A program made the translations under genes and the position numbers. Under the pieces are notes generated by a model. It was given only the letters and a program-made list of their open reading frames with translations. It was not told the origin of the DNA and searched no databases. A stretch of 64,000 nucleotides of DNA. Origin: Candidatus Adlerbacteria bacterium (GTDB lineage Bacteria; Patescibacteriota; Minisyncoccia; Phycocordibacterales; SBAW01). Positions within the stretch are counted from its first letter, which is position 1; each line of letters starts with the position of its first letter. This document shows, one piece after another, positions 31,540 to 45,762 of the stretch. The DNA lies in NCBI GenBank assembly GCA_003135635.1, contig PLCJ01000003.1, forward strand, positions 53,087 to 117,086, in the 5' to 3' direction.

Positions 31540-31611
31540 TCCGGCGTAGCTCAATGGTAGAGCAGCTCCCTGTTAAGGAGTTGGTTGTAGGTTCGAGTCC
31601 TACCGCCGGAG
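31540..31611 (+). tRNA. tRNA-Asn (anticodon GUU)
   Basis: Cloverleaf: acceptor UCCGGCG/CGCCGGA, D-arm GCUC-AAUGGUA-GAGC, anticodon stem GCUCC/GGAGU with loop CUGUUAA, T-arm GUAGG-UUCGAGU-CCUAC, discriminator G. Confidence 0.85.
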
Positions 31612-32913
31612 CAAGATAGGATTTTTTGAGTACAAATCATCCATATCCCTTGTGTTTGCTTTGTTTTCTACAGGTTCTAACTTTGCGTGAATAGCGCGGA
31701 CCTCAATTGCCATCGTTTGTATTGGGAATAACAGATTATCCCAGTCAATGCTCAACTTCCTGCCTTTTAAGATGAGGTCCGAACCTAGCGCGGCGAAAAT
31801 CTCTTTCCGAGTCTCAAGGTCGTTTCTTTTCTTTGCCTCGGCAAAAACAGCCATCCCCTTCTCTGCAAAGTTGAAACCGCGCTCGGCAATCTCAAGCCAG
31901 TTCTCCACACGCTTATCAGTATCCTTGAGGAGTTCTTGAAGTCGTCCCTTTTCAGCAAGGAGTGTTTGTTTTCTGCCCTTGAACTCCCCCTCTGTCAGCT
32001 CACCGTTGGCACGCATATCAATGAGGTTGTCTACCCTGCGCACACATGCCTCATATTCGCGCCTCTGTGCACCGTAGATACGGTCTCGGTCCGATACCTC
32101 TTGCGTGTTCATCTCACGAAGGCGTGCTAAAGCCCAGTTATTGAAATCAGTAGGTATCTCTATTGAGCCCAGCTCCTTTGCTATCTGTTTCTCAAGCTCC
32201 GCTTCCTCAATCGCTGGCTCTTTGCAGTTCGGGTTCCTGCGTTTGGTGCAATGATAGTAAGTGTAGTGGTGCGTGTTGCCGTTTTTCTGGTATTTCACTT
32301 TTTCCTCGGCAGTAACCATAGCGCCACATCCTCCACACTTGATAGGTCCGCGATACATAATCTCGTGCTTCTTTGGGTGCGGGTAGTTCTTTCGTCCAAT
32401 CAAAAACTGTATGCGGTCATACTCCTCGCGGGTAATCATCGGCTTGTGGATGCCCTTCATCGTGCTAAAGAGTTTCATATCCCGATACTTGTTTGTAGTC
32501 CACGCGGGCACGATGCTCCAAAAGTGGAGTTGTCCATTGTCGCCGATTTTACGGAGAATGACTTTGATTTTGCGCCCATCGGTGATAGCGATAATGCCCC
32601 AATACTTCACGGGCTTTGCTTTGAGTATTTTTTTCTTATGACTTTTGACCTCAAACTGTTTGATAGTTTCTTCGTATTCTTGATAGGTATTAGAGTGCCC
32701 TATGAGTTTTATGGCGCGTGGCAGGAGCTTGAAGCGTAGTATTTGTGATGGACGCTCTCGCTCACTCCGTGAACCTTTGAAAATGATGTGATTGAAACCC
32801 TCTGCTGTGAAATGCACATACTCGTTGAGTGCGGGCGACATAATAGGGCGGGTGGCGCTATAGAGTTTTTGAGCGTCCTCACGGAGTTTGTCGTAGTTAG
32901 AAAGGTCTTCCAT
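31600..32913 (-). CDS. Large-serine-recombinase-like protein (recombinase domain, Zn beta-ribbon, coiled coil) without recognisable resolvase catalytic domain
   Basis: ITREEYDRIQFLIGRK then GPIKCGGCGAMV...YTYYHC...C matches the LSR recombinase/zinc-ribbon region. Long C-terminal coiled coil. The N-terminal 150 aa lack the YxRVSxxxQ serine motif. The 3' end overlaps tRNA-Asn by 12 nt. Confidence 0.65.
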   Translation of the reverse strand: MEDLSNYDKLREDAQKLYSATRPIMSPALNEYVHFTAEGFNHIIFKGSRSERERPSQILRFKLLPRAIKLIGHSNTYQEYEETIKQFEVKSHKKKILKAKPVKYWGIIAITDGRKIKVILRKIGDNGQLHFWSIVPAWTTNKYRDMKLFSTMKGIHKPMITREEYDRIQFLIGRKNYPHPKKHEIMYRGPIKCGGCGAMVTAEEKVKYQKNGNTHHYTYYHCTKRRNPNCKEPAIEEAELEKQIAKELGSIEIPTDFNNWALARLREMNTQEVSDRDRIYGAQRREYEACVRRVDNLIDMRANGELTEGEFKGRKQTLLAEKGRLQELLKDTDKRVENWLEIAERGFNFAEKGMAVFAEAKKRNDLETRKEIFAALGSDLILKGRKLSIDWDNLLFPIQTMAIEVRAIHAKLEPVENKANTRDMDDLYSKNPILLRR

Positions 32914-33462: not shown

Positions 33463-34182
33463 ATGGAACAAGAAACTAAAAAACTACAACTATCCCAGCC
33501 AGTCGCAATTATTATCGCAGGGGTCATCATAGCGGGAGCTGTCATCTGGAGCAGTGGTAACAGAAATGCTGCGCCAAATACAACTGGGAGTACCCAACAG
33601 CAGGGCTCTACCGTTGCTGTAGACAGCAGCAAAGTGAATATCCAAGGCGAGCCATTTATCGGCAATCCCAACGCTCCGCTTATCATCGCATACTGGTTTG
33701 ACTACCAGTGTCCGTTCTGTCAGCGCAATGAGGAGACCGCTATGCCGCAACTAATCAAGGACTATGTAGACACAGGCAAAGCAAAGCTCGTGTTCAAGGA
33801 TTACGAGTTCTTGGGCGATGACTCACAGACACTAGGACAATACGCCCGTGCAGTATGGGCAACAGCACCTGACAAGTTCTACCCGTGGCACAAAGCTATC
33901 TTTGACAATCAAGGTCAAGAGAATAGTGGCTGGGCAACACAGGCAAAAATCCTCTCCATCACAACAAGCGTACTTGGCGCTAGCGATACGGCTAAAGTAG
34001 TAGCTCTCGTAAAAACAAATGGGGCTGCTTACCAGAAAGTAATGGATGCAGATAAAGCCGAAGGTTCAGCAAACGGTGTTACAGGTACTCCAGGTATGGT
34101 CATAGGCAAGCATTTGGTTTCTGGTGCAATACCCTACGCTCAAATAAAGGCAACCATAGAAGCGGCTCTCAAAAACCAATAA
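33463..34182 (+). CDS. DsbA-family thiol:disulfide oxidoreductase (membrane-anchored)
   Basis: N-terminal TM. Thioredoxin fold with CPFC active site. Confidence 0.8.
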   Translation: MEQETKKLQLSQPVAIIIAGVIIAGAVIWSSGNRNAAPNTTGSTQQQGSTVAVDSSKVNIQGEPFIGNPNAPLIIAYWFDYQCPFCQRNEETAMPQLIKDYVDTGKAKLVFKDYEFLGDDSQTLGQYARAVWATAPDKFYPWHKAIFDNQGQENSGWATQAKILSITTSVLGASDTAKVVALVKTNGAAYQKVMDADKAEGSANGVTGTPGMVIGKHLVSGAIPYAQIKATIEAALKNQ

Positions 34183-34184
34183 GT

Positions 34185-34853
34185 ATGCAAAAGAAAACAT
34201 ACACTCCGCTGCTTATCCTAGCGGGCGCACTCCTCATAAGCGGCTTTATTGTTACCAAATCCAGCATCGTACCCAAAGCAAATGCACAGCTCACTGCTAC
34301 ATATAACAGTATTCCAACTGTGAGCGGTAAGGTGCTGTTCATGCAACAGAGCCAAAATCTAACACAGAGCGTTGACCCCGCGCTTGTTGATTTGGACTCC
34401 CAGCTCATTACTTGCAGTCCCAATGTAGATAGTTTGCTTACAGCTAAGCCTATGCTTGGAGGAAGCTGTCTGGCAGGAGATAGTACACTCGGCACAACAA
34501 CGGGCATGTTTTTAGGCGGTCAGTGCTGTGGGTCAATGAAAAATCTAACGGACTATAACACTGAACTTCAAAACCTTCAGCAATACAAAGACATTCCTGA
34601 TTTGCCAATGAACCCATACAAAACGCCCGTGGCTCTTGCGAAGAAATGGATTGACTACGACAAGGCAACTAACCTCACACCTTCAGAACAAGCAACTATG
34701 GACCAAGCAATGCATATGTCAAAAGAAGGTCCATGTTGCTGCAAATGTTGGCACTACTTCGTCAATGAAGGTATCGCAAAGAAAATGATAAAGGATTACC
34801 ACTACAGCGCTCAACAAGTTGCGGCATACTGGGATACTTCAAGTATCTGCTAA
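34185..34853 (+). CDS. hypothetical Cys-rich secreted protein
   Basis: Signal anchor. 13 Cys including CCGS and CCCKC clusters. Confidence 0.6.
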   Translation: MQKKTYTPLLILAGALLISGFIVTKSSIVPKANAQLTATYNSIPTVSGKVLFMQQSQNLTQSVDPALVDLDSQLITCSPNVDSLLTAKPMLGGSCLAGDSTLGTTTGMFLGGQCCGSMKNLTDYNTELQNLQQYKDIPDLPMNPYKTPVALAKKWIDYDKATNLTPSEQATMDQAMHMSKEGPCCCKCWHYFVNEGIAKKMIKDYHYSAQQVAAYWDTSSIC

Positions 34854-34856
34854 CCT

Positions 34857-35483
34857 ATGCGTATGTATATCTGCCCAATGCACCCAGAGGTTCGGCAAGA
34901 CAAGCCTGGTCGTTGTCCTAAATGCGGCATGGCTCTTGTAGATGAGAGCACGTACCAAGCTAAACCCGTTATTGCTGACAAGGGACTTGGGCAGATTACA
35001 TGGCGCAGTTACATACCACTGGCTGTCATTGGGATGCTATTACTGCTCTCTACTCTCGCTGTATCGGTACACCAGTATCTTTTGGGAAGTTTCTTACCCG
35101 CAAATGCCATATCCTACTTTATGGCGGGTTTTTTCATTGTGTTTGCGGGTTTCAAACTTATGGACTTGAAAGGGTTTGCGGAAGGGTACTCAACGTACGA
35201 CTTACTGGCAGGACGCTGGTTTCGCTACGGCTATGTTTATCCGTTTATTGAGCTTGGATTTGGTATGGCTATGCTCGCAGGAATAGTGAACCCCTCCCTT
35301 TTGTGGGCAGAGTTGATAGTAATGTTGTTCAGCGGTATAGGTGTTGCAATCAAACTGGCAAAAGGCGAGAAGTTTCAGTGCGCCTGTCTTGGAACTTTTC
35401 TCAAAGTACCCCTTACAAAAATCACACTCATTGAGGATTTCGGTATGGCACTACTCGCACTAGCACTTCTGCTCATAGGTTGA
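34857..35483 (+). CDS. Heavy-metal-binding domain fused to MauE/DoxX-like membrane oxidoreductase domain
   Basis: N-terminal YICPMHPE...PGRCPKCGMAL. 4-TM body with C-terminal CAC motif (FQCACLG), as in the MauE family. Confidence 0.7.
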   Translation: MRMYICPMHPEVRQDKPGRCPKCGMALVDESTYQAKPVIADKGLGQITWRSYIPLAVIGMLLLLSTLAVSVHQYLLGSFLPANAISYFMAGFFIVFAGFKLMDLKGFAEGYSTYDLLAGRWFRYGYVYPFIELGFGMAMLAGIVNPSLLWAELIVMLFSGIGVAIKLAKGEKFQCACLGTFLKVPLTKITLIEDFGMALLALALLLIG

Positions 35484-35785: not shown

Positions 35786-35843
35786 CGCTTTTACCCTCTA
35801 TCAAACAGGTTCTAACACAGTCCAGTTCGCGGAGCTAAAAAAG
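35786..35843 (+). repeat. Composite island element, copy D (TTTTACCCTCTATC, core)
   Basis: cttttaccctctatcaaacaGGTTCTAACAcagtCCAgttcGCGGAGCtAAAAaag. Confidence 0.7.
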
Positions 35844-35868
35844 CCCTATTTCACAATCCTTTTTATAC

Positions 35869-35897
35869 TTGACAATAACTGTTATATATGATTAAAT
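35869..35897 (+). promoter_or_regulatory. sigma70-like promoter candidate for the 35940 gene
   Basis: TTGACA, 17-nt spacer, TTAAAT. GTG start with RBS aaggaga 40 nt downstream. Confidence 0.3.
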
Positions 35898-35939
35898 GTT
35901 CTTGAACGTACCTACACAATTCAACGAAAGGAGAACGTC

Positions 35940-36422
35940 GTGGGCTACTACTATGCCAAGGCAAGGCAGAAAAAAGAGCTCACCGCTCTTCAACAAGAAC
36001 GGTATGGAGAACTTCGTGGAAGTTTTAACGAACTCCACCCTGACCTCGCAACCGATTTGCCCTCTGCGCTTCGGGAACGACTCGTATACGACAAAGACTA
36101 CATCGGGCCCATCTTCAATGGCGAGACTTGGTCCGCCCTGGAAGAACTGGTGGAGGATACTTTGGTCAACTGGGTTTTGGCTGAGGAAAATCCCCAACGA
36201 GTTAAGTGGCTCGATCCCAAGGATCTGGTGGTGCCAGAACCTCCTCCAACTGAAGAAGAGCTCGAAGAGGGTAGGAAGCGGTGGGAAGATCTTATTCGCA
36301 GACAGGAAAAGCGACAAAAAGAAGATGCCCGAATCGATTTTGAAATTCGGTTCTGGTGGCTTCCCGAGCTAATCAAGCGCCCTATGCGAAAAATGGTCAC
36401 CGGCTGTGAATCAGCTCCTTAG
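35940..36422 (+). CDS. hypothetical charged soluble protein
   Basis: GTG start after aaggaga. 160 aa, E/K/R-rich C-terminus. Confidence 0.6.
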   Translation: MGYYYAKARQKKELTALQQERYGELRGSFNELHPDLATDLPSALRERLVYDKDYIGPIFNGETWSALEELVEDTLVNWVLAEENPQRVKWLDPKDLVVPEPPPTEEELEEGRKRWEDLIRRQEKRQKEDARIDFEIRFWWLPELIKRPMRKMVTGCESAP

Positions 36423-36437
36423 GTCGAATGCCTATAG

Positions 36438-36536
36438 CCCCGATGAGACTTCGTTCTCAACGGGGTTTCATTGTTTTTATACCCTCACTTCCCTTCCGAG
36501 ACTGGTTCTAACATCCTCCAGGGCGGGGAGCAAAAT
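36438..36536 (+). repeat. Composite island element, copy E (hairpin, T-run, ATACCCTCAC, core)
   Basis: ccccgatgagacttcgttctcaacggggtttcattgtttttataccctcacttcccttccgagactGGTTCTAACATCCTCCAgggcggggagcaaaat. Confidence 0.85.
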
Positions 36537-36552
36537 AGGTCAAGTTCGGAAC

Positions 36553-36561
36553 TGATATGAT
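36553..36561 (+). promoter_or_regulatory. extended -10 promoter (TGaTATGAT), probably producing a leaderless mRNA
   Basis: TGnTATGAT lies 7 nt upstream of the ATG at 36569. There is no SD. Confidence 0.4.
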
Positions 36562-36568
36562 AAGTCAC

Positions 36569-37009
36569 ATGAATCCATCGCTCAAACAACTGGAGCCATT
36601 GGTTGGTAAATGGGTCATGGAATTGTCCAATGCTTCCTTTCTTCCTGATCATTCTACCACTGTACGAGGAACCACTTCCTGCGAATGGATTGAGGGGGGT
36701 GATTTTTTAGCTGTGCGCCAAGGAGCCAAGGGAGCAGGAACTCCCTATTCTGTATGGCTTATTGGTCGTGACAAAGCATCTTCCGAGTATACTGCTCTTT
36801 ATTTTGACGACCGTGGAGTCTCAAGGGTATATAGAATGAGTTTTAAGAGCGGAATCTGGAAACTCTGGCGGGTCACACCTAAATTCTCGCAACGCTTCGA
36901 GGGCAAACTAAGCAAAGACAAAAAGACCATTAAAGCTCAATGGGAGAAAAAGTTTGGAAGCAAAAAGTGGGAACACGATTTCGACCTAACTTATAGCAAG
37001 CGTAAATAG
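36569..37009 (+). CDS. hypothetical protein (beta-rich, possibly lipocalin/DUF1579-like)
   Basis: 146 aa. Start set at MNPSLKQ downstream of the extended -10. Confidence 0.55.
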   Translation: MNPSLKQLEPLVGKWVMELSNASFLPDHSTTVRGTTSCEWIEGGDFLAVRQGAKGAGTPYSVWLIGRDKASSEYTALYFDDRGVSRVYRMSFKSGIWKLWRVTPKFSQRFEGKLSKDKKTIKAQWEKKFGSKKWEHDFDLTYSKRK

Positions 37010-37042
37010 CTTCTAACATTCTCCAAGGTACGGAGCAAAAAG
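37008..37042 (+). repeat. Composite island element, copy F (core only, abuts the stop codon)
   Basis: agCTTCTAACATtCTCCAaggtacGGAGCAAAAag. Confidence 0.8.
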
Positions 37043-37069
37043 CAGTAGATTACGTGTTACACTAAATCC

Positions 37070-37180
37070 GTGAATATAGCAGCAATATTTTCTTGGGGGT
37101 CACCATTAGGCATAGGACTTTGGATGGCAGGTTTAGGTGTATTTTTTTGGGGCCTGAGCAAATTCATTCACAGGAATTAA
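37070..37180 (+). CDS. candidate 36-aa hydrophobic peptide
   Basis: GTG start. VNIAAIFSWGSPLGIGLWMAGLGVFFWGLSKFIHRN. Lies exactly between element copies F and G. Confidence 0.25.
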   Translation: MNIAAIFSWGSPLGIGLWMAGLGVFFWGLSKFIHRN

Positions 37181-37186
37181 TTAGGC

Positions 37187-37224
37187 TGGTTCTAACATCC
37201 TCCAAGGTGCGGAGCTATTTTTTA
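37187..37224 (+). repeat. Composite island element, copy G (core)
   Basis: ctGGTTCTAACATCCTCCAaggtgcGGAGCtatttttt. Confidence 0.85.
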
Positions 37225-37306
37225 TGCCTTATTTTCAATGGGATTTTTGATACCCCAATTGGACATCAGAACTTTTAATTGGCAATCTCAGTGCTAGGAT
37301 ATACAT

Positions 37307-37489
37307 ATGAACAAGCGACCGCTGTATGTGTACGTAATCGGAGTTGTTGTTGTGTGGGCGATTATTCTCACACTCTCATGGTTTGGAGTCATCTGGAAAC
37401 CCTTCAATGAAGTTGTCACAGTATGTGCGGGCTTCGCCCTCGGGATGCTCGCGATGTATATCGCCGTACACCTGTATAGGTGGAAATAA
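37307..37489 (+). CDS. small membrane protein (2 TM, 60 aa)
   Basis: Two hydrophobic helices (VYVIGVVVVWAIILTL, VCAGFALGMLAMYIAV). Confidence 0.5.
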   Translation: MNKRPLYVYVIGVVVVWAIILTLSWFGVIWKPFNEVVTVCAGFALGMLAMYIAVHLYRWK

Positions 37490-37521
37490 TCTAGCGGACA
37501 ACTCCTGCCCGCAGAGGACAA

Positions 37522-37530
37522 TGGTATAAT
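37522..37530 (+). promoter_or_regulatory. extended -10 promoter (TGgTATAAT), leaderless candidate
   Basis: atgGTATAAT lies 9 nt upstream of the ATG at 37540. Same architecture as at 48602-48610. Confidence 0.4.
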
Positions 37531-37539
37531 AACGACATC

Positions 37540-37719
37540 ATGGACAAATGGCGCTCGACATACGTCAAGCTAGTAGTACTTGAACTTGTACTAAGTGTGG
37601 TGTTCTTTGCACTCGGGCATTACATTGGGAACGCTTATTTTCGTGGCGTAGGTGTCGGCTTGTTAATCGCTTGGGTCACGGGCGCCTTAGCTTATTTTAT
37701 TGTGAAGAGAAGAGTTTGA
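37540..37719 (+). CDS. small membrane protein (2 TM, 59 aa; absent from the ORF track, which omits ORFs under 60 aa)
   Basis: MDKWRSTYVKLVVLELVLSVVFFALGHYIGNAYFRGVGVGLLIAWVTGALAYFIVKRRV. Confidence 0.45.
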   Translation: MDKWRSTYVKLVVLELVLSVVFFALGHYIGNAYFRGVGVGLLIAWVTGALAYFIVKRRV

Positions 37720-37776
37720 ATGTTTGTTTACACAAACCCCAACATTTGAATTTCTTTCGCTAGCGTTGCCCAATCC

Positions 37777-37812
37777 AGAGTTCTGAACGTGTCCAACGAG
37801 TGGAGCAACTAC
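37777..37812 (+). repeat. Composite island element, copy P (degenerate core), immediately followed by TTGACT
   Basis: agaGTTCTgAACgTgTCCAacgagtGGAGCAActac. Confidence 0.5.
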
Positions 37813-37886
37813 TAATTGACTCGACAGATTAACTTATTATGTTAGTCTAATTTTAGAATCTTAAAAGTGCCTACGGGAGAGCAATT

Positions 37887-38111
37887 ATGCGCGACAGGAC
37901 CGACTACGGTCATCAATTTCTCGCCAACCAGGATCCTAAGTTCTGGATGAATAGTTGGGGGCCGTTGATTCTTGTCTTTCCCCCCGGACCTTTCCGAAAC
38001 GGATACTGGAAACTCTTCATCCCAAAAACAGACAAGAGTATCGGGTTCACGGGAGAAACTGCAGAGCAGTCAGCATTTCTATTTGCTGCAATTTTTTCCG
38101 GATCAGCCTAA
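37887..38111 (+). CDS. hypothetical small protein
   Basis: RBS gggagag. 74 aa. Confidence 0.5.
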   Translation: MRDRTDYGHQFLANQDPKFWMNSWGPLILVFPPGPFRNGYWKLFIPKTDKSIGFTGETAEQSAFLFAAIFSGSA

Positions 38112-38121
38112 CCAAGCCGTT

Positions 38122-38201
38122 CACCAGCAAGCCGCCTGGAGGACGGTTTTGCTTTTTATATCTTCAGGCTAGTCCTCACATCCTCCAGAGTGGGCTATAC
38201 C
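38122..38201 (+). repeat. Composite island element, copy H (type I hairpin identical to copy C, then diverged core)
   Basis: accagcaagccgcctGGAGGAcggttttgctttttatatcttcaggctagtcctcACATCCTCCAgagtgggc. Confidence 0.8.
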
Positions 38202-38559
38202 AAATGAAAGGGCCTACGATTGCTCGTGGGCTCAGTTGGGAAGATCGATTTTGAAGTGTTATCGAACTTTTCAGCTCTAGTCTTGAATGAGATGCTGCAA
38301 CCTTTGATACGGATTACTCCGCTTCTCTAGTATTCACAAGTCATTGTTTGACCACTTCTGCCTCGCCGGCACCAACCCGATGTTTAAGCCAGCTACCTGT
38401 TAAGATTTCCGGCTCACCCATCTTGCGTGGCGCGACGACAAAGAACTATCTGGCTTCCTCTATACTAAACATATAGATGTGGATATAGGTGGTCAAGCAT
38501 CATATATAAGAATATCGCTGAATAAGCTGTGCACAATATGTGCAGAAGTGGCATAAAAC

Positions 38560-38646
38560 GGTGGATAGTGCATCCGAGACTTTTTTTATTACTTTGGCAA
38601 GGGGCTAAGATAGGTTCTAACATCTTCCACGAGGGGAGCAAAATGC
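38560..38646 (+). repeat. Composite island element, copy I (weak hairpin, T-run, core)
   Basis: gagactttttttattactttggcaaggggctaagataGGTTCTAACATCtTCCAcgaggggagcaaaatgc. Confidence 0.8.
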
Positions 38647-38746
38647 TTTTTTGTGAAAAGAACTTAAATTACTTGCTTTTTTATACATAGATGCTTTTAT
38701 TGCCAAAGAACCCAAACCTGTAGAGTTTTGTCTTGAGGAGGCAACG

Positions 38747-39400
38747 TTGAAAATAATTCGCCGGCAGATAATCCTAGGAATTGCCGTACTTTTGGTTTTG
38801 TGCGGATGCCAAGGAGCTGCTACAAACACACCTGTTCTTTCACAAACACCCATTCCAGCTTCGACCGTATACTCTCTCGATAATTTTGCGGGTGCGAATG
38901 GGAGCTTGCTGACGGCCCACATCCCGGACATCGGTCCCCTTTGGAGGATCATGACTGATCCAACCAAATGGATCCTTCAATCAGGTGCTCTTACCCGTTC
39001 TTATTTCGTAATCGACCAGGCATGTGTCGATACGAAACAGACTGATGTCGTCATTAGCGCAAACTTCACCTCCCTTAACGGTCTCTCATCGCTCCTTGTG
39101 CGTCGTCAGAATGGGGGGAATTATTGGGGGCTCTTCTACGACACCGTCCGAAACGGCTGGCAAATGGACAAAGTACTAGGAGGTCCTGATCAATTCCAAG
39201 GACCTCTCCTTCCCGGATCGATCGGGATCGTCAGTCTGAGCGCTAAGGGCAACACTATCACGGCGGTAGGACCACGTGGTGATGTGTTTAGTGTCACCGA
39301 TCCAGCACTCAATACTCAGACACAAGCATGTCTCGTCCTTGACGGAGATGGGACAAATGCTTCTACCGTCAAAAGTTGGAAAGCGACCAGCGTCATATAA
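38747..39400 (+). CDS. hypothetical lipoprotein
   Basis: TTG start after gaggagg. Signal peptide with LVLCGC lipobox-like cysteine. Confidence 0.65.
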   Translation: MKIIRRQIILGIAVLLVLCGCQGAATNTPVLSQTPIPASTVYSLDNFAGANGSLLTAHIPDIGPLWRIMTDPTKWILQSGALTRSYFVIDQACVDTKQTDVVISANFTSLNGLSSLLVRRQNGGNYWGLFYDTVRNGWQMDKVLGGPDQFQGPLLPGSIGIVSLSAKGNTITAVGPRGDVFSVTDPALNTQTQACLVLDGDGTNASTVKSWKATSVI

Positions 39401-39421
39401 GGATAAGAACATTTATTCGAG

Positions 39422-39459
39422 GGAGCTTCGTCTTAGTACGAAGCTCCTTTCCATTTTTG
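39422..39459 (+). terminator. intrinsic terminator (10-bp perfect stem GGAGCTTCGT/ACGAAGCTCC, then T-run)
   Basis: ggagcttcgtcttagtacgaagctcctttccatttttg. Forms the 5' part of element copy J. Confidence 0.7.
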
Positions 39460-39502
39460 TGCGTTTATGTAGGTTCGAACATCCTTCATGAGGGAGAGTT
39501 CG
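39422..39502 (+). repeat. Composite island element, copy J (terminator, T-run, core closest to the tRNA-Asn 3' end)
   Basis: tgtAGGTTCGAacatCCTtCAtgaGGGAGAG shares the 10-mer GTAGGTTCGA with the tRNA-Asn T-arm. Confidence 0.8.
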
Positions 39503-39704
39503 TTGTCTCACCTCACTCTAGTGGAGATACATATAAAAATCGAAAGGACCGTGTTCGAGAGAAGGGTGCGAACACCACAACCTATCGAACACGGCCTTGT
39601 CTTTGCTACAACCTCCGAGCGCCAACGCGTTCATTTTTAAGGTCAACAACAGTCAACTTAGAAACTTCGGGAAGCTTGATCGATACCAACTATGGGTCAT
39701 GTCA

Positions 39705-40532
39705 TTAGAATGCTCCCGCGAAGCTGAAAGCCGAACCGATGAGGTTTTCCTGGTACGTATTCCAGAACGGGCTGGACCCCTTTGCGTTTTCGAACGCTCC
39801 AATGCTGGGGCCGAATTCAGTAAAGTAAACCGGCTTCGACGTTCCGAACGCGGCTTGGACTGCCGTGATTGCTGAGCGCATCCCATCGTCGGTCTGCCTG
39901 TACGGATGCAGGCCGTAGCCGTCAACGTAGGGCGCCAGCGACGCGATTGCTTGATCCCATCCGATGTCGAGTCCAGACGTTCCGCCCGTGATAATCGTCG
40001 CGCTCGGGCATGCGGCGCGGATTGCCGGCGCTGTCGCCTTAACGAGCGAGAGATACGCGGTGTAATCGATATTTGCTTGGCCGTTCGGCGCGTCTGGCTC
40101 GTTGTATATCTCGAAGATAAGCGACGGGACTGAACCACAACGCCGCGTGGCCTCGGCTGCGACGTAGACCGCGTAAGCGGCGGGGCTATACGGGAGGCGC
40201 TCGGCGAACGTGCCGTCTGTGTGAATGTACGGCGTGATCTCCATCACGCTGAGATTGTCAGCAGAAGCCGCCGCAAAAAACGCGTCGTAGTACGCTTCGC
40301 CGTACTCCTTCGTGTAGTCAACGCGCACGGCATTTGCCTTCATCGCGACTGCCACTGAAAGTTGCACAGTCGGATCACCGTACTGCGGATGGACTTCAAC
40401 AGAGCGCAGCGTCGTGTAGAGGTTCGTGGACACGGGCGGGATGCTTGGAATCGCGCCACCACCTCCACCACAGCCAGCGAGTGCGGCGATGAATAAAATC
40501 GCGAGGGGTGAGAAGTTCTTTGATATCTTCAC
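39705..40532 (-). CDS. Glycoside hydrolase family 5-like lipoprotein
   Basis: Lipobox LAGC. IFEIYNEPD (acid/base Glu) and YFTEFG (nucleophile Glu). The gene is clearly more GC-rich than its surroundings. Confidence 0.7.
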   Translation of the reverse strand: MKISKNFSPLAILFIAALAGCGGGGGAIPSIPPVSTNLYTTLRSVEVHPQYGDPTVQLSVAVAMKANAVRVDYTKEYGEAYYDAFFAAASADNLSVMEITPYIHTDGTFAERLPYSPAAYAVYVAAEATRRCGSVPSLIFEIYNEPDAPNGQANIDYTAYLSLVKATAPAIRAACPSATIITGGTSGLDIGWDQAIASLAPYVDGYGLHPYRQTDDGMRSAITAVQAAFGTSKPVYFTEFGPSIGAFENAKGSSPFWNTYQENLIGSAFSFAGAF

Positions 40533-40841
40533 GGGAACCGGCCCTTCGTCGGTGCTGAATGGTACCGTTGTCTGGGATATACAATAAATTACTATCGATA
40601 TTTCGTCAATAGCGCGTGCCCTAAATTTAACTATACACTTGACAAATAATTAATACATGGTACACTAGTCCCAGACGCTAAACATTCTCGCGGATTAAGT
40701 GGAATGTACGTTCCTAGAAGGGGTACCACATGTCCTACGCTCTCGACAACCACGGCCAACCACACTTCGGATCGTTCGTTAAAGCATCACAGTCGGCGAC
40801 CGACACCAACAAGAAGTAACACTTCCCGGCCGGTGCGTCAG

Positions 40842-40927
40842 GAGACCTCGCAGCAATTTTGCGGGGTCTCTTTTTTTTTATACAATCAAACTGTTTTGAA
40901 CATCCTCAAGGGTGCGGAGCAATAAAC
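40842..40927 (+). repeat. Composite island element, copy K (terminator, T-run, ATACAATCAAAC, core)
   Basis: gagacctcgcagcaattttgcggggtctcttttttttatacaatcaaactgTTTTGAACATCCTCAAgggtgcGGAGCAAtaaac. Confidence 0.8.
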
Positions 40928-40934
40928 TTGATTT

Positions 40935-41366
40935 CTAGTGCAAGAGTCCCATATGAGTAAATCCAGCATGAATTAGGTAAGCACTAACCACCAAGATAAT
41001 AATGGCATACAGATAGAAAAACTTTTCTAAGTTGACCGAGCGTGCCCAGCGGACGATGGTCTTAGGAATAAAGAGAAGAGCGGCGCCCTTAAGTAAGGCT
41101 GCCCACCCGGTAATGGTAATAACAAGGGCAAGAATCCCTGCATTCCAGTAGTTGTGGTTAAGCACCAATAACAACCCGAGGAGCATCGCAATCCAACCGG
41201 CTAAGAATAGGGAGGTCGAACCACTGTAGAATTCATTTATTACCTCAAGAAACATCTTCTTTCGAAGCAACATCAAAAGTCCCACGAAGAGCAAATACAG
41301 ACCGATAAGCTGAGCGAGAAAATAAGTTAGTCCCATAAAAATTGATGAAACTGATAAGGGGTGCAT
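40935..41366 (-). CDS. hypothetical polytopic membrane protein
   Basis: 4 hydrophobic helices, 143 aa. Confidence 0.6.
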   Translation of the reverse strand: MHPLSVSSIFMGLTYFLAQLIGLYLLFVGLLMLLRKKMFLEVINEFYSGSTSLFLAGWIAMLLGLLLVLNHNYWNAGILALVITITGWAALLKGAALLFIPKTIVRWARSVNLEKFFYLYAIIILVVSAYLIHAGFTHMGLLH

Positions 41367-41386
41367 TCATACTATAGCACCTAAAC

Positions 41387-41422
41387 GGGTTCTGGTACCT
41401 TCCACGAGGAGGAACAAAAAGG
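41387..41422 (+). repeat. Composite island element, copy L (degenerate core)
   Basis: gGGTTCTggtACcTtCCAcgaggagGAaCAAAAagg. Confidence 0.5.
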
Positions 41423-41635
41423 AACCCCGCAGTTGTATGCGGGGCCTTAGGCCTAATCTTTCCTACGATGCGAGTCTATTTACGAGCCTTTTTACCTTTT
41501 CTGGATCCAGCTCGAAGAAGGACCTGCTCACTCCCGTCGACACTAAGAAGCAATCGGCAAGGAGATATCCTCCTATGTTTTCTAGTGTCATGCCGCTTGC
41601 GATCGCAAGTGGATGATCGCCTATTGCTTCCTTCA

Positions 41636-42163
41636 TCACACGGATTTTTCCACGTCTGGTGGAGTTCCTGTCTTTGACCCGCTAGTAGTGATGACATCGA
41701 TGTAGGGGGTCGCTAATTGGGCAACGCGAGCTACGTCATACACAGTTTCCTGGCCCTTGAATGCGACTCCCCCGAAGAGAGGAAAATATTCAGGGAGCAG
41801 GTGTTTTTTCCAATCATGCGTATCGCGGGCCTGACGTACAGGGTCTTCTGCACGCTCACGAATACCGCCGTCGTCTACCCAAAGACCCGACACTGAAGGA
41901 TCTTTCTCAATTTTCCGAATCGCTGTTCTGTTGTCGAGACTAAGATAGTTGAGACCAATCCATAAGTCAGGAAAGGCCTTTCGAGCGAAAAGGTAGCATC
42001 CATCAAGTCGGCCGTGGAGGTCACTATGGTCGATGAGAAAGACCCCATCTGCTCCCGCCTCGCACACAGTGCGCACGTTTCTAAGTGTCTGCTCAACATC
42101 TTTTACATGGATGACGATGAGGAGTGTGTGGGGCTTCGGAAAGATATTTGTGAAGGGGTTCAT
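41636..42163 (-). CDS. hypothetical protein (possible TIM-barrel-like fold)
   Basis: 175 aa. Alternating beta/alpha pattern. No confident family. Confidence 0.5.
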   Translation of the reverse strand: MNPFTNIFPKPHTLLIVIHVKDVEQTLRNVRTVCEAGADGVFLIDHSDLHGRLDGCYLFARKAFPDLWIGLNYLSLDNRTAIRKIEKDPSVSGLWVDDGGIRERAEDPVRQARDTHDWKKHLLPEYFPLFGGVAFKGQETVYDVARVAQLATPYIDVITTSGSKTGTPPDVEKSV

Positions 42164-42247
42164 GACACCTCCTTTCTTTTTTTAATGTTCAGTAGCTGGC
42201 AGAACTATGTGAGATAGCGCCACAGAAGTCAAACTTTGTAATGAAAA

Positions 42248-42285
42248 TAGGTTCGAACATCCTCCACGAAGGGAGCAAACAAAAT
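42248..42285 (+). repeat. Composite island element, copy M (core)
   Basis: tAGGTTCgAACATCCTCCAcgaagGGAGCAAAcaaaat. Confidence 0.85.
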
Positions 42286-42716
42286 AAAATCATCCTGCTG
42301 GTCCTCAGGATGATTCTCTATGACCCCCAAAGGTCAGGCACTAGCTTCTTTTAGCTCGCCGTGCCGGTGTGTTGCCTTATGAGCTTCTATACCCCCTTCG
42401 GATAATAAACCAGGGAAGCCGTTGGCAAATAGATGATGCCAAATTTAAACAGAATAATCAAATATAACTGATAGTGAACATCGTTAACATAACACGAATG
42501 TAAGAACCTTAACTCCCCCACTTCTTCCTATCAGACCTTATAAAAGCTTGTATTTTTCAAACAGATATCCTAAACTCCCATTGGGTTGGAGAAGTGTGTG
42601 TTGGGGACCTTCAAAGCACCGACGCTCGTCGTGGCCACGCTAGGGCCTGGCGGAGACACAATGAGGAGAGTCTCATACTCCCTCTCATTAGCTGGCCTCC
42701 TTCTCTGACTTTTTTA

Positions 42717-42792
42717 CTCCGCCTTGTGCGGAGTTTTCCTTATTATACAATCACCGACTTTCTTCATCATCCGCTTAAGCGAAGAGTGCACC
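42717..42792 (+). repeat. Composite island element, copy Q (type III hairpin, ATACAATCACC, degenerate core)
   Basis: ctccgccttgtgcggagttttccttattatacaatcaccgactttcTTCatCATCCgCttAAGcGaaGAGtgcAcc. Confidence 0.5.
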
Positions 42793-42846
42793 TCTCCCCA
42801 CTCCAATCTCTACCGTCTGACCTTTTATTGCCCCTGCCAACCAAGG

Positions 42847-42855
42847 TTGTATAAT
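42847..42855 (+). promoter_or_regulatory. extended -10 promoter TTGTATAAT for the surface-protein gene
   Basis: TGTATAAT lies 37 nt upstream of the ATG at 42892. Confidence 0.45.
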
Positions 42856-42891
42856 TATTGACACCATTTAATATCATTAATAATAAGAGCT

Positions 42892-44124
42892 ATGGATACA
42901 CAACCATCTGGTAATTATCATCGAAGCATGTGGCCGAGTGGAGCAAAATACACGATTATCACAAGAATTGTTATCGGTGCGATAGTTATAGTGTTTTTAA
43001 TCGTGGTTGGCGTTGTTATTATCGGCATGAGGAATAATTCGTCCTTCAACATCAATCCCGGCTCAGGGAAAGAGGGAACCGAGATCACGATCGTGTATCC
43101 AAAGGCACCGTCTTCCCTTTCCGGTTCAGCAACTGTAAAGTTCTATGATGCTGGTGAGCATGGCTGGTATATGGTTAGTGGCGGCGCCGCAGTTTATGTC
43201 GCCTACGATTCAACCAAGGGTTTGACCTATAGCGCTCCAGCTACGGCTACAGGCTCTAACAACAATGGCGCGAGCTACACGGCAACCGTCCCTCAGGGGA
43301 TTTGCGGATTCATAATTCAATCTGATCAGGCAACACCCGCTCCGCCAAAGGTGCTTGATGTCTCCATAGCAGGGCCTGACGGCACGCCGATCCCGGGGAC
43401 ACATCCGACAAAGTTTAATCTGATATGCGATAAATATACGCTGAAGGCGAAAATCACAGCTAATCCCGACAAGGTTCTGCCGGACGGTGCCAGCCAGTCA
43501 ACCATAACTGCAAACTTGAGCGTGACGGGGCCGGCTCAAGTTGTTATCGGCCAGAAAATTACAAAACCTACTCAACCAATTATTCTAGTGTCACCGCTTG
43601 GTTTGGTGATGGTCCACTTCAATACCAGCCTCGGTACGATTGCGCCGAATCCAGCCAATGTTAAGACCGATTTAAGTGGAGATGCCGTTGTGACTCTTAC
43701 CTCGATGGATGCGGGCATAGCCAAGGTTCAGGCGGTTGCTTCAGGCATCGGAGACGCCATTGCTAATGTTTATTTTGAGCCAAAGATCACCGGCGTCCAG
43801 GAAAATTTCGTCCAGCCAAACAGCCCGACCAATTATCAGATATCCACAATTCCCGCGAATCCAAAGGATCTTACTTTCGATTGGGAGATCATTCGTCCTG
43901 CCGGGCCCGTCTGCGGGAGTCTCACCGGCCCCGCAAGCGGCTTGGGTGAATCAATGAACGGTTTCTTCCATGGACTGACTTCCGATTTTCCGAACGGCTG
44001 CGACGAAACTTATGAATTCGCCACTCAGATCAAAGTCACAGTCACCGACAAGGATGGACAAAGTGATAGTAAAACTTTCTCAGCGAGAGCTCTCGAGGGA
44101 CAGGGCGTGGTCAAGTTGCCGTAG
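42892..44124 (+). CDS. membrane-anchored surface protein with bacterial Ig-like (Big) domains
   Basis: N-terminal TM. Repeated beta-sandwich segments (DGASQSTITANLSVTG, LSGDAVVTLTSMDAGIAKVQAV). Confidence 0.65.
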   Translation: MDTQPSGNYHRSMWPSGAKYTIITRIVIGAIVIVFLIVVGVVIIGMRNNSSFNINPGSGKEGTEITIVYPKAPSSLSGSATVKFYDAGEHGWYMVSGGAAVYVAYDSTKGLTYSAPATATGSNNNGASYTATVPQGICGFIIQSDQATPAPPKVLDVSIAGPDGTPIPGTHPTKFNLICDKYTLKAKITANPDKVLPDGASQSTITANLSVTGPAQVVIGQKITKPTQPIILVSPLGLVMVHFNTSLGTIAPNPANVKTDLSGDAVVTLTSMDAGIAKVQAVASGIGDAIANVYFEPKITGVQENFVQPNSPTNYQISTIPANPKDLTFDWEIIRPAGPVCGSLTGPASGLGESMNGFFHGLTSDFPNGCDETYEFATQIKVTVTDKDGQSDSKTFSARALEGQGVVKLP

Positions 44125-44211
44125 AAGTCAAAAACGAGTTTGAAAGTCGCCCCATCGGAAACAGATATAAAGAAGACGCCGCTCTTTTCAGAACGGCGCT
44201 TGTGCTGCGGT

Positions 44212-44598
44212 TTAACACGCAAGTAAGCTTCTCATCCGATTTATTGTTAGACAGGCCGTTGTGGCTTCTTCGCATGTGGCCGCAAGTTTCTGCAGTCCAG
44301 AAGAATCATCATTGTGCGGTAATGCAGTTTCCACAACATTTACGATGAGCTCATGAAGACCACCAGGCATCGGATGGCTAAGAAGTTCGGAAAGGTGTCT
44401 GTGTGCCTGTTCGGCTCTCTGGCGCTGACCCGCAACAAAGAGGATGTATTTTCTGGAACCTGAATGCTGAGTCGGGTCGGCGTTGAGACAGAAGTACCGT
44501 ATGGCCGAAAGGTCTCGGGCCGCTTGTTGAATGCTCTGGCGCTGATTTCCTTCAGGGAATGAAGGCACAGTTTCGGTCCTCCTTTCAAGTGAAACCAT
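44212..44598 (-). CDS. hypothetical protein (doubtful)
   Basis: ORF in a GC-rich patch, no family. Alternative frames overlap it. Confidence 0.3.
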   Translation of the reverse strand: MVSLERRTETVPSFPEGNQRQSIQQAARDLSAIRYFCLNADPTQHSGSRKYILFVAGQRQRAEQAHRHLSELLSHPMPGGLHELIVNVVETALPHNDDSSGLQKLAATCEEATTACLTINRMRSLLAC

Positions 44599-44687
44599 TC
44601 CTACAATACCTAAAATTTTAAGGATGTCTACAACTGAAGTTTGGGTCGCAAAACACCATCTATCAAAATATAATTTCGGTGGTCTGC

Positions 44688-44975
44688 TTAGTAGTGAATC
44701 GTCGTAGTGGTACTTGTGACAGTACCACTGGTACTGTTTGGAACAGCGGTGGATCCACTACTTGGAACGTTTACTTGAATCGTGCTGGCGGGAGTTGAAT
44801 TATTCCCGACCCTGTAAAAACCAAACCATGCTATAAAACCTACAACCAGCAGCACTAGCAAGACGACGATGACAGTTAACGCTGAACCAGAGTCATTGCC
44901 ACCTCCTGTGTTATTAATTTCTGTAACCATACTATTGGATAGAGTAAATTCTAATAATAATTGGACCTTAGACAA
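44688..44975 (-). CDS. small membrane protein (1 TM, S/T-rich tail)
   Basis: TM ALTVIVVLLVLLVVGFIAWFGF. Confidence 0.45.
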   Translation of the reverse strand: MSKVQLLLEFTLSNSMVTEINNTGGGNDSGSALTVIVVLLVLLVVGFIAWFGFYRVGNNSTPASTIQVNVPSSGSTAVPNSTSGTVTSTTTTIHY

Positions 44976-45189
44976 GCCTTAAACCTCCAAGGAGCATGAG
45001 AACACCTACGATAATTGCCACAACTGCTACGACCATTGCTAAGGTGCGACTTGGAAAGAAGAAATGAATACCATACCCCAGAAAGAAAATGATTTCGCAC
45101 AATGTAAGTAAAGACATGGTTTGGTAGATTACTAATAATTTAGGAACTGCATCATGAATACGTTTTAGATTATGACAATAAAAAAACAA
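44968..45189 (-). CDS. small membrane protein (2 TM)
   Basis: Hydrophobic helices. Adjacent to the preceding small membrane gene. Confidence 0.4.
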   Translation of the reverse strand: MFFYCHNLKRIHDAVPKLLVIYQTMSLLTLCEIIFFLGYGIHFFFPSRTLAMVVAVVAIIVGVLMLLGGLRLV

Positions 45190-45431
45190 AAAAGCAAGGA
45201 AATCCTGTTGATATTAAAACTGACTCCAGTTCAAGATGTAGCGGTCTTTTTTTGTCCAACCAGCTTCCCTATCTCATCTATCACCCGCCCCGGTGAAGTA
45301 TATACTTCTTCCCACGCAGTAGTTTGAAAGTTGCTCCATAAGGAAGGGCGACATTTGATATTTTGTTACATTGTGTTATACTATTTGTAGTATCGTTCTA
45401 AAGAAAACTCTACGGAAGGACGTAAACAACC

Positions 45432-45668: not shown

Positions 45669-45676
45669 ACTCCAAA

Positions 45677-45762
45677 CCGCCCAAGGAAGACCTCCTTCGG
45701 GCGGTCTTCTTTTTATTTGATTAAATAGGTTCAAACACCGTTTATGGCGGGAAGCGAAACAG
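45677..45762 (+). repeat. Composite island element, copy N (type II hairpin, T-run, degenerate core)
   Basis: ccgcccaaggaagacctccttcgggcggtcttctttttatttgattaaatAGGTTCaAACAcCgTttAtggcgggaagcgaaacag. Confidence 0.55.

What the first reader, a model, noticed from the sequence alone, without database searches (positions are those of the whole stretch)
37070..37719. Tandem cluster of tiny hydrophobic peptides, each behind its own element or promoter
Within 650 bp there are three peptides. One is a 36-aa peptide (GTG start, no SD) sitting exactly between copies F and G. The other two are 60-aa and 59-aa two-TM peptides. The 59-aa peptide falls below the ORF track's 60-aa cutoff and so is not listed, and has a TGgTATAAT leaderless promoter. 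This resembles type I toxin or bacteriocin/immunity-like small membrane peptides embedded in the cassette array.
Basis: partly seen in the sequence, partly recalled or inferred. Interest (0 to 1): 0.5.

Follow-up and report, generated by a model that had tools for sequence, protein, structure and literature searches.

The report
Conserved small membrane-protein pair in cassette array
Two of the three tiny hydrophobic ORFs are real, conserved genes that form a recurring pair of two-helix membrane proteins in candidate-phyla-radiation bacteria, the third has no support, and nothing indicates toxins or bacteriocins; the most unusual thing here is the repeat-delimited cassette array next to a tRNA-Asn gene that carries them.

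Summary
All three ORFs exist at the stated coordinates. The 60-aa ORF (B, 37307-37489) and the 59-aa ORF (C, 37540-37719) are genuine genes. B has 178 database homologues and C has 108, almost all 55-80 aa. Both are under purifying selection (dN/dS 0.07-0.35), and AlphaFold2 predicts a confident two-helix hairpin for each. They are unrelated in sequence, yet they lie side by side in seven genomic contexts, in either order, so they are probably a functional pair. A TGnTAnAAT box 9 nt before C's ATG is conserved in three loci.

The 36-aa ORF (A) has no homologue, was not called as a gene in the two assemblies examined, and is no longer than chance allows (about 10% of shuffles).

The type I toxin and bacteriocin/immunity readings found no support. 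There is no conserved antisense signal, no leader peptide and no export gene, and the proteins are widely conserved rather than patchy.

The "elements" are copies of a 28-nt bipartite DNA motif (GGTTCKAACATCCTCC-N7-GGAGC). The motif resembles the 3' end of tRNA-Asn, is always co-oriented, lies downstream of tRNA-Asn in many metagenomes, and bounds units that are gained and lost whole. Large serine recombinase genes are the only recombinases found beside it. The function of B and C remains inferred.

The parts
37004..37036 (+). Repeat copy 'F'. The 28-nt core is 37009-37036 (GCTTCTAACATTCTCCAAGGTACGGAGC). It overlaps the stop codon of the upstream DUF1579-like ORF (36557-37009).
37070..37180 (+). 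ORF A, 36 aa, GTG start, one hydrophobic stretch. It is probably not a gene. It fills a 146-nt inter-repeat unit that looks like a remnant or spacer.
   Evidence: the ORF and an overlapping 36-aa antisense ORF; no homologue; not called; 9.7% of shuffles reach this length; no unusual RNA structure
37183..37215 (+). Repeat copy 'G'. The 28-nt core is 37188-37215 (GGTTCTAACATCCTCCAAGGTGCGGAGC). It marks the upstream boundary of the B-C unit. A similar copy sits just upstream of B in L011.
37292..37300 (+). Possible extended -10 box (TGcTAGGAT) 6 nt before B's ATG. This is read from the sequence and inferred only. The promoter scan did not flag it.
   Evidence: sequence; no consensus promoter found upstream of B; L011 has TACAGT-N6-ATG
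37307..37489 (+). Gene B: a 60-aa two-helix membrane protein. Family motif: GFxLGMLAMYIAVHLYxWK.
37494..37512 (.). Inverted repeat GCGGACAACTCCTGCCCGC in the B-C spacer. It is absent from L011, so it is not a conserved part of the module.
37522..37530 (+). Extended -10 box TGgTATAAT, 9 nt before C's ATG. It implies a 2-4 nt leader. The arrangement is conserved in L011 and L005.
37540..37719 (+). Gene C: a 59-aa two-helix membrane protein. It has a conserved Glu15 in helix 1, a conserved Arg35, and the motif YFRGVGVGLLIAWVTGALAY in helix 2.
37779..37806 (+). Diverged repeat copy (AGTTCTGAACGTGTCCAACGAGTGGAGC). It closes the B-C unit and separates it from the next unit.
   Evidence: weak nhmmer match at 37792-37810; sequence read by eye; 20 of 177 family members also start with AGTTC
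37816..37843 (+). Promoter-like site TTGACT-N16-TATGTT, 9 nt after the diverged repeat and upstream of ORF D.
   Evidence: (a promoter directly downstream of the repeat in 12.6% of copies against 0.7% of control positions)
37887..38111 (+). ORF D, 74 aa, not hydrophobic, called as a gene in L001 and L002. It belongs to the next unit, which ends with a degenerate repeat at 38166-38198.
31540..31612 (+). tRNA-Asn(GTT), the anchor of the array. Its 3' end (GGTTCGAGTCCTACCGCCGGAGC) resembles the repeat.
31600..32913 (-). 437-aa protein next to the tRNA. Residues 153-436 are homologous to the C-terminal half of large serine recombinases. Residues 1-152 are unrelated to the resolvase catalytic domain. 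The element it sits in is flanked by ACAGGTTCTAAC at about 31668 and at 35806.

Best explanation
B and C are a conserved two-gene module. It encodes two unrelated two-helix (N-in/C-in) inner-membrane proteins specific to Paceibacteria/Minisyncoccia-like candidate-phyla-radiation bacteria. The most likely mechanism, which is inferred, is that the two proteins assemble in the membrane into a hetero-oligomer through their highly conserved second helices, which carry small-residue packing motifs. The complex would then act as an accessory or ion-handling factor, comparable to AtpI/AtpZ, rather than as a toxin.

In this genome the pair is the cargo of one unit (37216-37806) of an array of co-oriented units delimited by a 28-nt motif, downstream of tRNA-Asn. 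C appears to have its own extended -10 promoter giving a nearly leaderless mRNA. ORF A is most likely a chance ORF in a 146-nt remnant unit.

Shown: that B and C are real genes, their conservation, their pairing, the two-helix fold, and the array context. Inferred: the hetero-oligomer, the function, and promoter use.
For: B and C are real genes.
- B has 178 homologues and C has 108, almost all 55-80 aa.
- dN/dS is 0.14-0.35 for B and 0.07-0.17 for C.
- Both were called as genes in independent assemblies.
- In the alignments the second helix is nearly invariant in both families.

Fold: both AlphaFold2 models are confident hairpins.

Pairing.
- B and C are adjacent in the order B-C in the window, in L011 and in L137.
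- They are adjacent in the order C-B in L004-L006, in L136 and in L138; in L005 and L138 the two genes overlap by 4 nt.
- In L012/L013, C is followed by a weakly B-like ORF.
- Between the window and the syntenic locus L011, the B-C pair and an inverted Nramp gene are the only segments shared beyond fmt.

Relationship between the two: they are not paralogues by hhalign.

Hints at function.
- 20 of 50 C-family members give sub-threshold matches to Pfam ATP-synt_I. The four individual matches examined all cover profile positions 2-52 (one 2-50).
- C has a conserved membrane-embedded Glu and a GVGVG helix.
- In L004-L006 the pair sits two genes upstream of a P-type cation ATPase, with one uncharacterised 113-138 aa ORF between.
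- The window array also carries Nramp and HMBD-MauE/DsbA cargo.

Promoter: TGnTAnAAT-N9-ATG occurs upstream of C in three loci with otherwise different upstream sequence.

Array context.
Against: - No experiment and no annotated homologue gives a function.
- The ATP-synt_I matches are below Pfam's cut-off (17.7-18.7 bits in the members examined individually, against a 25.1-bit cut-off) and could reflect composition shared among transmembrane helices.
- B occurs without C in L007 and L009, and C occurs without B in L014. Pairing is therefore frequent but not obligatory.
- The promoter scan found no consensus promoter for B or C. Leaderless initiation is inferred from spacing only.
- A profile search found only 83 C-family clusters, all small and with no fused domain, so it added no functional clue.
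- Fold and sequence searches against solved structures were empty.
Confidence: 0.6

Rival explanations
1. B and/or C (and A) are type I toxin-like membrane peptides whose translation is held in check by an antisense RNA. The cassette array keeps them as addiction or stabilising modules, as toxin-antitoxin cassettes do in chromosomal integrons.
For: The ORFs are small, hydrophobic and located in a mobile, hypervariable region. On the minus strand there is a promoter-like match inside C (37666-37637) and a terminator-like hairpin at 37512-37494. Together they could define an antisense RNA of about 135 nt over C's start.
Against: - Both proteins have two helices, and they are widely conserved under purifying selection, including in non-mobile housekeeping contexts such as folD-B-SIMPL-secE-nusG in L009.
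- Promoter- and terminator-like counts do not exceed shuffles: 4 against 2.3 +/- 1.4, and 2 against 1.2 +/- 1.1.
- The spacer hairpin is missing in L011.
- No toxin family matched in Pfam, NCBIfam or PHROGs.
- A has no homologue at all.
Confidence: 0.07
2. B and C are a bacteriocin (or two-peptide bacteriocin) and its immunity protein.
For: Two adjacent small hydrophobic proteins, with GxxxG-like motifs of the kind seen in two-peptide bacteriocins.
Against: - Neither protein has an N-terminal leader or a double-glycine site. Both begin with a short cationic stretch running straight into helix 1, and both end with cationic residues, which is the signature of integral N-in/C-in membrane proteins.
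- No ABC/C39 exporter or modification enzyme turned up among the ORFs scanned in the window, or among the genes called with Pfam hits in L004-L014 and L136-L138.
- The gene order is interchangeable, and each gene also occurs alone.
Confidence: 0.04
3. B and C are mobile-element functions, such as a holin/antiholin-like or superinfection-exclusion pair, brought in by integrative elements that target the repeat.
For: - The pair lies in a recombinase-associated array.
- B-family genes lie 0.7-1.7 kb downstream of tRNA genes in L004/L005 and L007, and a large serine recombinase gene is nearby in L005.
- Nine B-family members give weak matches to a 3-TM holin family, with best E-value 0.22.
Against: - No B relative, and only one 17-residue fragment resembling C, was found in 2.9 million viral contigs.
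- There are no significant PHROGs matches.
- No lysis, capsid or replication genes were identified among the neighbouring genes that have Pfam hits.
- The proteins also occur in core-gene neighbourhoods.
Confidence: 0.1
4. B and C are real but functionally independent small membrane proteins. Their adjacency only reflects co-transfer as neighbouring cargo.
For: Each occurs alone in some genomes. The two are not homologous. Hypervariable arrays are full of unrelated small membrane proteins, for example L102.
Against: Adjacency survives changes of gene order, of spacer (overlap, 15 nt, 30 nt, 50 nt) and of genomic context at 60-90% protein identity. That is hard to explain without selection for linkage.
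Confidence: 0.15

Closest known systems
AtpI / AtpZ small membrane proteins of F-type ATPase operons (Pfam PF03899 ATP-synt_I). From general knowledge, AtpI acts as a c-ring assembly chaperone and AtpZ+AtpI have been linked to Mg2+ uptake in Bacillus.
   Same: Small helical-hairpin membrane proteins. C-family members repeatedly align to the first hairpin (positions 2-52) of the ATP-synt_I profile. Like AtpZ and AtpI, B and C are two small hydrophobic genes side by side.
   Different: Scores are below Pfam's cut-off. None of the loci examined places B-C in an atp operon. B has no detectable relation to AtpI or AtpZ. C is half the length of AtpI.
Type I toxin-antitoxin toxins (Hok, TisB, Fst, Ibs and similar)
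   Same: Proteins of 60 aa or less, hydrophobic, in a variable region, with a short or absent leader.
   Different: B and C have two helices instead of the usual one. They belong to broad, purifying-selected families. No conserved antisense RNA signals were found. They form a protein-protein gene pair rather than a protein-RNA pair.
Integron gene-cassette arrays
   Same: Co-oriented short recombination sites separate one- or two-gene units. In 56 of 56 multi-copy loci all copies are on one strand. Median spacing is 645 nt. Units are gained and lost whole, and the site travels at the 3' end of the unit.
   Different: - There is no IntI among the ORFs scanned, and no attC-type R''/R' inverted repeat.
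- The putative 4-bp stem shows uncompensated changes.
- Units often carry their own promoter and terminator.
- The array is anchored at tRNA-Asn.
- The only recombinases seen nearby are large serine recombinases.
tRNA-anchored additive genomic islands / tycheposons of Prochlorococcus (bioRxiv 10.1101/2020.12.28.424599)
   Same: A hypervariable island directly downstream of a specific tRNA gene. It contains repeated tRNA-3'-end-like sites and degenerated elements. Its integrases include large serine recombinases (compared).
   Different: - The repeated site is not a plain partial tRNA copy. It is a conserved 28-nt variant, 5 nt longer than the 23-nt tRNA 3' end.
- Units are much smaller, often a single gene of a few hundred bases.
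- Most units lack any integrase.
- The lineage is candidate-phyla-radiation bacteria.

Membership tests
Type I toxin-antitoxin system | Small hydrophobic toxin, usually with a single transmembrane helix | tested here: not met
   The size fits, but AlphaFold2 gives two helices for B and for C. A has one hydrophobic stretch but no support as a gene.
Type I toxin-antitoxin system | Antisense or divergent small RNA gene overlapping the toxin mRNA | tested here: inconclusive
   One minus-strand promoter-like site and one terminator-like site exist. Their counts do not exceed shuffles, and the hairpin is not conserved in L011. No transcript data are available.
Type I toxin-antitoxin system | Toxicity on overexpression | not testable with these tools
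   This needs heterologous expression.
Class II bacteriocin plus immunity protein | N-terminal leader with a double-glycine (or Sec) cleavage site on the bacteriocin | tested here: not met
   The conserved N-termini MNKRPLYVYV (B) and MDKWRST (C) run directly into helix 1, with no GG motif.
Class II bacteriocin plus immunity protein | Neighbouring ABC exporter with a C39 peptidase, or accessory genes | tested here: not met
   No such domain was found among the ORFs scanned in the window, or among genes with Pfam hits in ten other loci carrying B or C.
AtpI (Pfam PF03899 ATP-synt_I) | Score at or above the Pfam gathering threshold (25.1 bits) | tested here: not met
   The individually examined members scored 17.7-18.7 bits, and the best E-value across the family was 4e-4. 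20 of 50 members match weakly, and the four matches examined individually all cover profile positions 2-52 (one 2-50). The window's own C scores nothing for this family.
AtpI (Pfam PF03899 ATP-synt_I) | Location at the head of an atp operon | tested here: not met
   No ATP synthase genes flank B or C in any of the loci read.
Integron gene cassette | attC site: an imperfect inverted repeat (R''-L''...L'-R') of 57-141 bp ending in GTTRRRY | tested here: not met
   The repeat is a 28-nt bipartite site with no second arm. Twelve C-to-G changes at position 13 are not compensated at position 27.
Integron gene cassette | Adjacent IntI tyrosine recombinase and attI | tested here: not met
   No Phage_integrase domain was found in the ORFs scanned around the array. 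The tRNA-proximal gene is related to large serine recombinases.
tRNA-anchored integrative island (tycheposon-like) | Island directly downstream of a specific tRNA gene, with co-oriented repeats resembling the tRNA 3' end | tested here: met
   14 of the 20 tRNAs found in motif-bearing loci are tRNA-Asn. In every case the tRNA is upstream of the motif copies and on the same strand. The sequence resemblance is shown.
tRNA-anchored integrative island (tycheposon-like) | Site-specific integrase that uses the repeat as its attachment site | tested here: inconclusive
   The junctions of large-serine-recombinase elements share the core GGTTCTAAC in the window and in L035. Whole-unit insertions bounded by the motif are seen in L123 against L035 and in L025 against L079. 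The window's own protein lacks the catalytic domain. There is no activity assay.

The most novel reading that the evidence does not exclude
The peptides are cargo of a previously undescribed, integron-like gene-capture system of candidate-phyla-radiation bacteria. It consists of arrays of small units, often with their own promoter and terminator, each ending in a co-oriented 28-nt bipartite site (GGTTCKAACATCCTCC-N7-GGAGC). The site mimics the tRNA-Asn 3' end with 5 extra bases. The arrays are anchored downstream of tRNA-Asn and are assembled by large serine recombinases acting in trans on integrase-less mini-elements. On this reading the B-C pair is one of its recurrent adaptive cargoes.
Probability: 0.3. 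Interest if true: 0.75.

Novelty: new member of a known kind. Interest (0 to 1): 0.4.

Why it matters
On their own, B and C add two uncharacterised but clearly real families to the small membrane proteins of candidate-phyla-radiation bacteria. In these organisms much of the proteome is unknown, and they live on other cells through their envelope. A conserved, linked pair with an invariant membrane-embedded Glu and glycine-zipper helices is a tractable target for interaction and transport assays.

The larger point is the context. The same 28-nt site organises co-oriented mini-cassette arrays next to tRNA-Asn in many metagenomes. Whole-unit gain and loss is directly visible, and large serine recombinases are the only linked recombinases. 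If that holds up, it describes how these reduced genomes shuffle accessory genes, and it would be a serine-recombinase counterpart to integrons.

Tried and rejected
- **Rfam.** The gathering-threshold search of the whole window found only two tRNAs. The permissive search of 36400-38300 found nothing credible. The repeat is not a described RNA family.
- **attC reading.** No second arm was found in a 14-copy alignment. No IntI was found.
- **Xer/dif-like 11-6-11 reading of the 28-mer.** Rejected by inspection because the two arms share no dyad symmetry.
- **Hairpin CTCC-N7-GGAG.** Rejected as a conserved structure because changes at position 13 are not compensated.
- **Literature search for the repeat sequence.** No hits. 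Searches on Patescibacteria plus integrons, and on candidate-phyla-radiation islands plus serine recombinase, gave nothing relevant.
- **GTDB representative genomes.** The strict, window-specific pattern gave one hit that looks like chance.
- **Viral contigs.** No B relative was found, and only a 17-residue fragment resembling C.
- **Solved structures.** The profile search for C and the Foldseek search for B were both empty.
- **Family libraries.** Pfam, NCBIfam and PHROGs gave nothing significant for A, B, C or D.
- **B and C as paralogues.** Rejected by hhalign.
- **Codon-usage scoring of A.** Uninformative at this length.
- **RNA folding of the 146-nt A unit, both strands.** No different from shuffles.
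- **First junction script.** It timed out and was redone with BLAST.
Full report
**What is in the sequence.**
The region holds three + strand ORFs exactly as described.
- A is 37070-37180: 36 aa, GTG start, no Shine-Dalgarno sequence.
- B is 37307-37489: 60 aa.
- C is 37540-37719: 59 aa.

The "elements" are copies of a repeat family. A 17-nt pattern taken from the repeat matches 10 times in the window against 0.27 expected. The repeat finder lists 12 co-oriented copies between 35.8 and 48.6 kb, with spacings of 179-3478 nt. A profile search adds two more copies at 14.8 and 15.3 kb. A lies in the 146 nt between copy F (37004-37036) and copy G (37183-37215). B and C follow copy G. A diverged copy at 37779-37806 closes the B-C unit. 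A promoter-like TTGACT-N16-TATGTT (37816-37843) then precedes a further ORF, D, of 74 aa.

**Source organism.**
The same DNA is found on a 340-kb metagenome contig. Homologues of B and C that carry a name come from Minisyncoccia, Paceibacterota or "Pacebacteria". The window therefore most likely comes from a candidate-phyla-radiation (Patescibacteria) bacterium.

**Are the ORFs genes?**
B and C are.
- B has 178 homologues at E <= 0.01, nearly all 59-63 aa and 53-97% identical.
- C has 108 homologues of 53-102 aa.
- An exhaustive profile search found 83 C-family clusters at 50% identity among 1.8 billion representatives. All are small and none has a fused domain.
- Against three other loci, dN/dS is 0.14-0.35 for B and 0.07-0.17 for C.
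- The non-coding DNA around the two genes does not align between loci.
- In both alignments the second helix is almost invariant: GFxLGMLAMYIAVHLYxWK in B and YFRGVGVGLLIAWVTGALAY in C. C also has a conserved Glu15 in helix 1 and a conserved Arg35.
- AlphaFold2 gives confident two-helix hairpins, with pLDDT 85 for B and 89.5 for C.
- Cationic residues at both ends of each protein suggest an N-in/C-in topology. This is an inference from the sequences.

A is not supported.
- No protein in 5.8 billion clusters shares enough words with it to be a search candidate.
- It was not called as a gene in the two assemblies examined, L001 and L002.
- A 36-aa ORF overlaps it on the other strand.
- 9.7% of shuffles of the unit give an ORF at least as long.
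- The unit shows no unusual RNA folding on either strand.

**B and C form a pair.**
They are not homologous to each other, yet they are neighbours in seven contexts.
- Order B-C: the window, L011 (15-nt spacer) and L137.
- Order C-B: L004-L006, L136 and L138. In L005 and L138 the two genes overlap by 4 nt.
- In L012/L013, C is followed 4 nt later by a 66-aa ORF that is weakly B-like (hhalign E = 0.004).

B occurs alone in L007 and L009, and C alone in L014. L011 is syntenic with the window through mreB-aroA-def-fmt. Beyond fmt it shares only the B-C pair and an inverted Nramp gene. Linkage that survives changes of order, spacer and context argues for a functional partnership.

**Expression signals.**
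TGgTATAAT lies 9 nt before C's ATG. L011 has TGaTATAAT-N9-ATG and L005 has TGcTACAAT-N9-ATG, although the upstream context differs in each. B has TGcTAGGAT 6 nt before its ATG, and L011 has TACAGT-N6-ATG at the same place. The consensus scan flagged neither.

**Toxin or bacteriocin?**
Nothing supports either.
- Minus-strand promoter- and terminator-like matches are no more frequent than in shuffles.
- The spacer hairpin at 37494-37512 is absent from L011.
- Neither protein has a leader or a double-glycine motif.
- No exporter or C39 peptidase turned up among the ORFs scanned in the window, or among the annotated genes in ten other loci.
- Pfam, NCBIfam and PHROGs give no significant match.
- The families are essentially absent from viral contigs.
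- B also sits in housekeeping surroundings, for example folD-B-SIMPL-secE-nusG in L009.

**What might B and C do?**
Only weak clues exist.
- 20 of 50 C-family members give sub-threshold matches to Pfam ATP-synt_I. The four matches examined individually all cover the first hairpin of that profile, positions 2-52 (one 2-50).
- Some C relatives are circularly permuted, with the Gly-rich helix first and the Glu helix second.
- In L004-L006 the pair sits two genes upstream of a P-type cation ATPase, with one uncharacterised ORF between.
- The window's array also carries Nramp, an HMBD-MauE fusion and a DsbA-like protein.

I therefore favour a hetero-oligomeric membrane complex with an accessory or ion-handling role. 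This is an inference with low confidence in the specific function.

**The array.**
The repeat is a 28-nt bipartite DNA site. Positions 2-5, 7-8 and 24-28 are almost invariant, and positions 18-22 are essentially free. The hits share consensus features outside the pattern.
- In 56 loci with two or more copies, all copies are on one strand. Median spacing is 645 nt.
- 14 of the 20 tRNAs in these loci are tRNA-Asn. In every case the tRNA is upstream of the motif copies and co-oriented with them.
- The tRNA's 3' end (GGTTCGAnTCCnnnCnnnnGGAGC, 23 nt) resembles the site. The same unit starts can follow either the tRNA end or a site copy.
- T-runs precede the site in 49% of copies against 24% of control positions. 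TTGAC-N17-20-TAnnnT promoters follow it in 12.6% against 0.7%. Many units are thus self-contained transcription units.
- Among pairs of site copies, 11 share only the left flank and 4 share only the right flank. Sequence divergence usually starts right after GGAGC.
- Two empty-versus-occupied comparisons show whole units inserted after GGAGC that bring their own site copy at their 3' end: L035 against L123 (1.25 kb, carrying RhuM/Fic) and L079 against L025 (2.76 kb).
- The 4-bp stem CTCC/GGAG is not maintained by compensatory change, so this is a DNA site rather than a hairpin.

The most frequently recurring protein family near the site is a large serine recombinase. In L035 and in the window, the junctions of such an element share the core (A)GGTTCTAAC, about 60-70 nt downstream of the tRNA and again at a full site copy. 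The window's 437-aa protein keeps only the C-terminal half of such a recombinase.

No Rfam family and no paper in the searchable library matches the site. The closest described analogue is the tRNA-anchored additive island of the tycheposon model. The array also resembles integrons in layout, but not in its site or its enzyme.

**Verdict.**
The array that carries it is the more interesting object and deserves its own follow-up.

Noticed in passing
window 14799-14831, 15328-15354, and 35798-48575 (about 14 copies); loci L015-L134: A 28-nt bipartite site, GGTTCKAACATCCTCC-N7-GGAGC, forms co-oriented arrays (median spacing 645 nt) downstream of tRNA-Asn in many metagenome contigs. It has no Rfam or literature match. 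Whole units bounded by the site are present or absent between related contigs (L035/L123, L079/L025).
   Followed up: partly
window 31600-32913 (-): A 437-aa protein next to tRNA-Asn. Residues 153-436 are 40% identical to the C-terminal half of the large serine recombinase in L035. Residues 1-152 replace the resolvase catalytic domain with an unrelated domain, which also occurs near site copies in L059 and L082. The ORF's 3' end runs across the element junction into the tRNA.
   Followed up: partly
window 31540-31612 compared with the site copies; L035, L104, L105, L120: The tRNA-Asn 3' end (23 nt from GGTTCGA to GGAGC) and the array site (28 nt) share both conserved blocks but differ by 5 nt in spacing. 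From general knowledge of large serine integrases, attP half-sites place the zinc-ribbon-domain motif 5 bp further out than attB half-sites. The parallel is suggestive but untested.
   Followed up: no
window 38116-38157, 15279-15320, 13117-13154, 48509-48529: A second repeat, CACCAGCAAGCCGCCTGGAGGACGGTTTTGCTTTTTATA, looks like a terminator module and precedes several site copies. Its loop, CCTGGAGGA, is complementary to TCCTCCAGG inside the site. This is not a general feature in other metagenome loci.
   Followed up: partly
L011 4712-5016: The tRNA-Asn of the related genome appears to be interrupted after the anticodon-loop CCCTGT by an insert of about 230 nt, possibly an intron. ARAGORN does not call the gene.
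   Followed up: no
proteins P0226, P0263 (C family): These are circularly permuted C homologues: the Gly-rich helix (YFRGVGIGL...) comes first and the Glu-containing helix second. That is the helix order of ATP-synthase c-subunit-type proteolipids.
   Followed up: no
window 33463-35483 and 45875-48126: Other cargo in the same array or island relates to metals or redox: a DsbA-like thioredoxin, an HMBD-MauE fusion, a glyoxalase-fold protein, a weakly Ctr-like 155-aa protein and an Nramp transporter.
   Followed up: no
L102 1-5065: A 5-kb contig carries five identical site copies. Most of its units encode small multi-helix membrane proteins of unknown function, which suggests such proteins are typical cargo of these arrays.
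   Followed up: no
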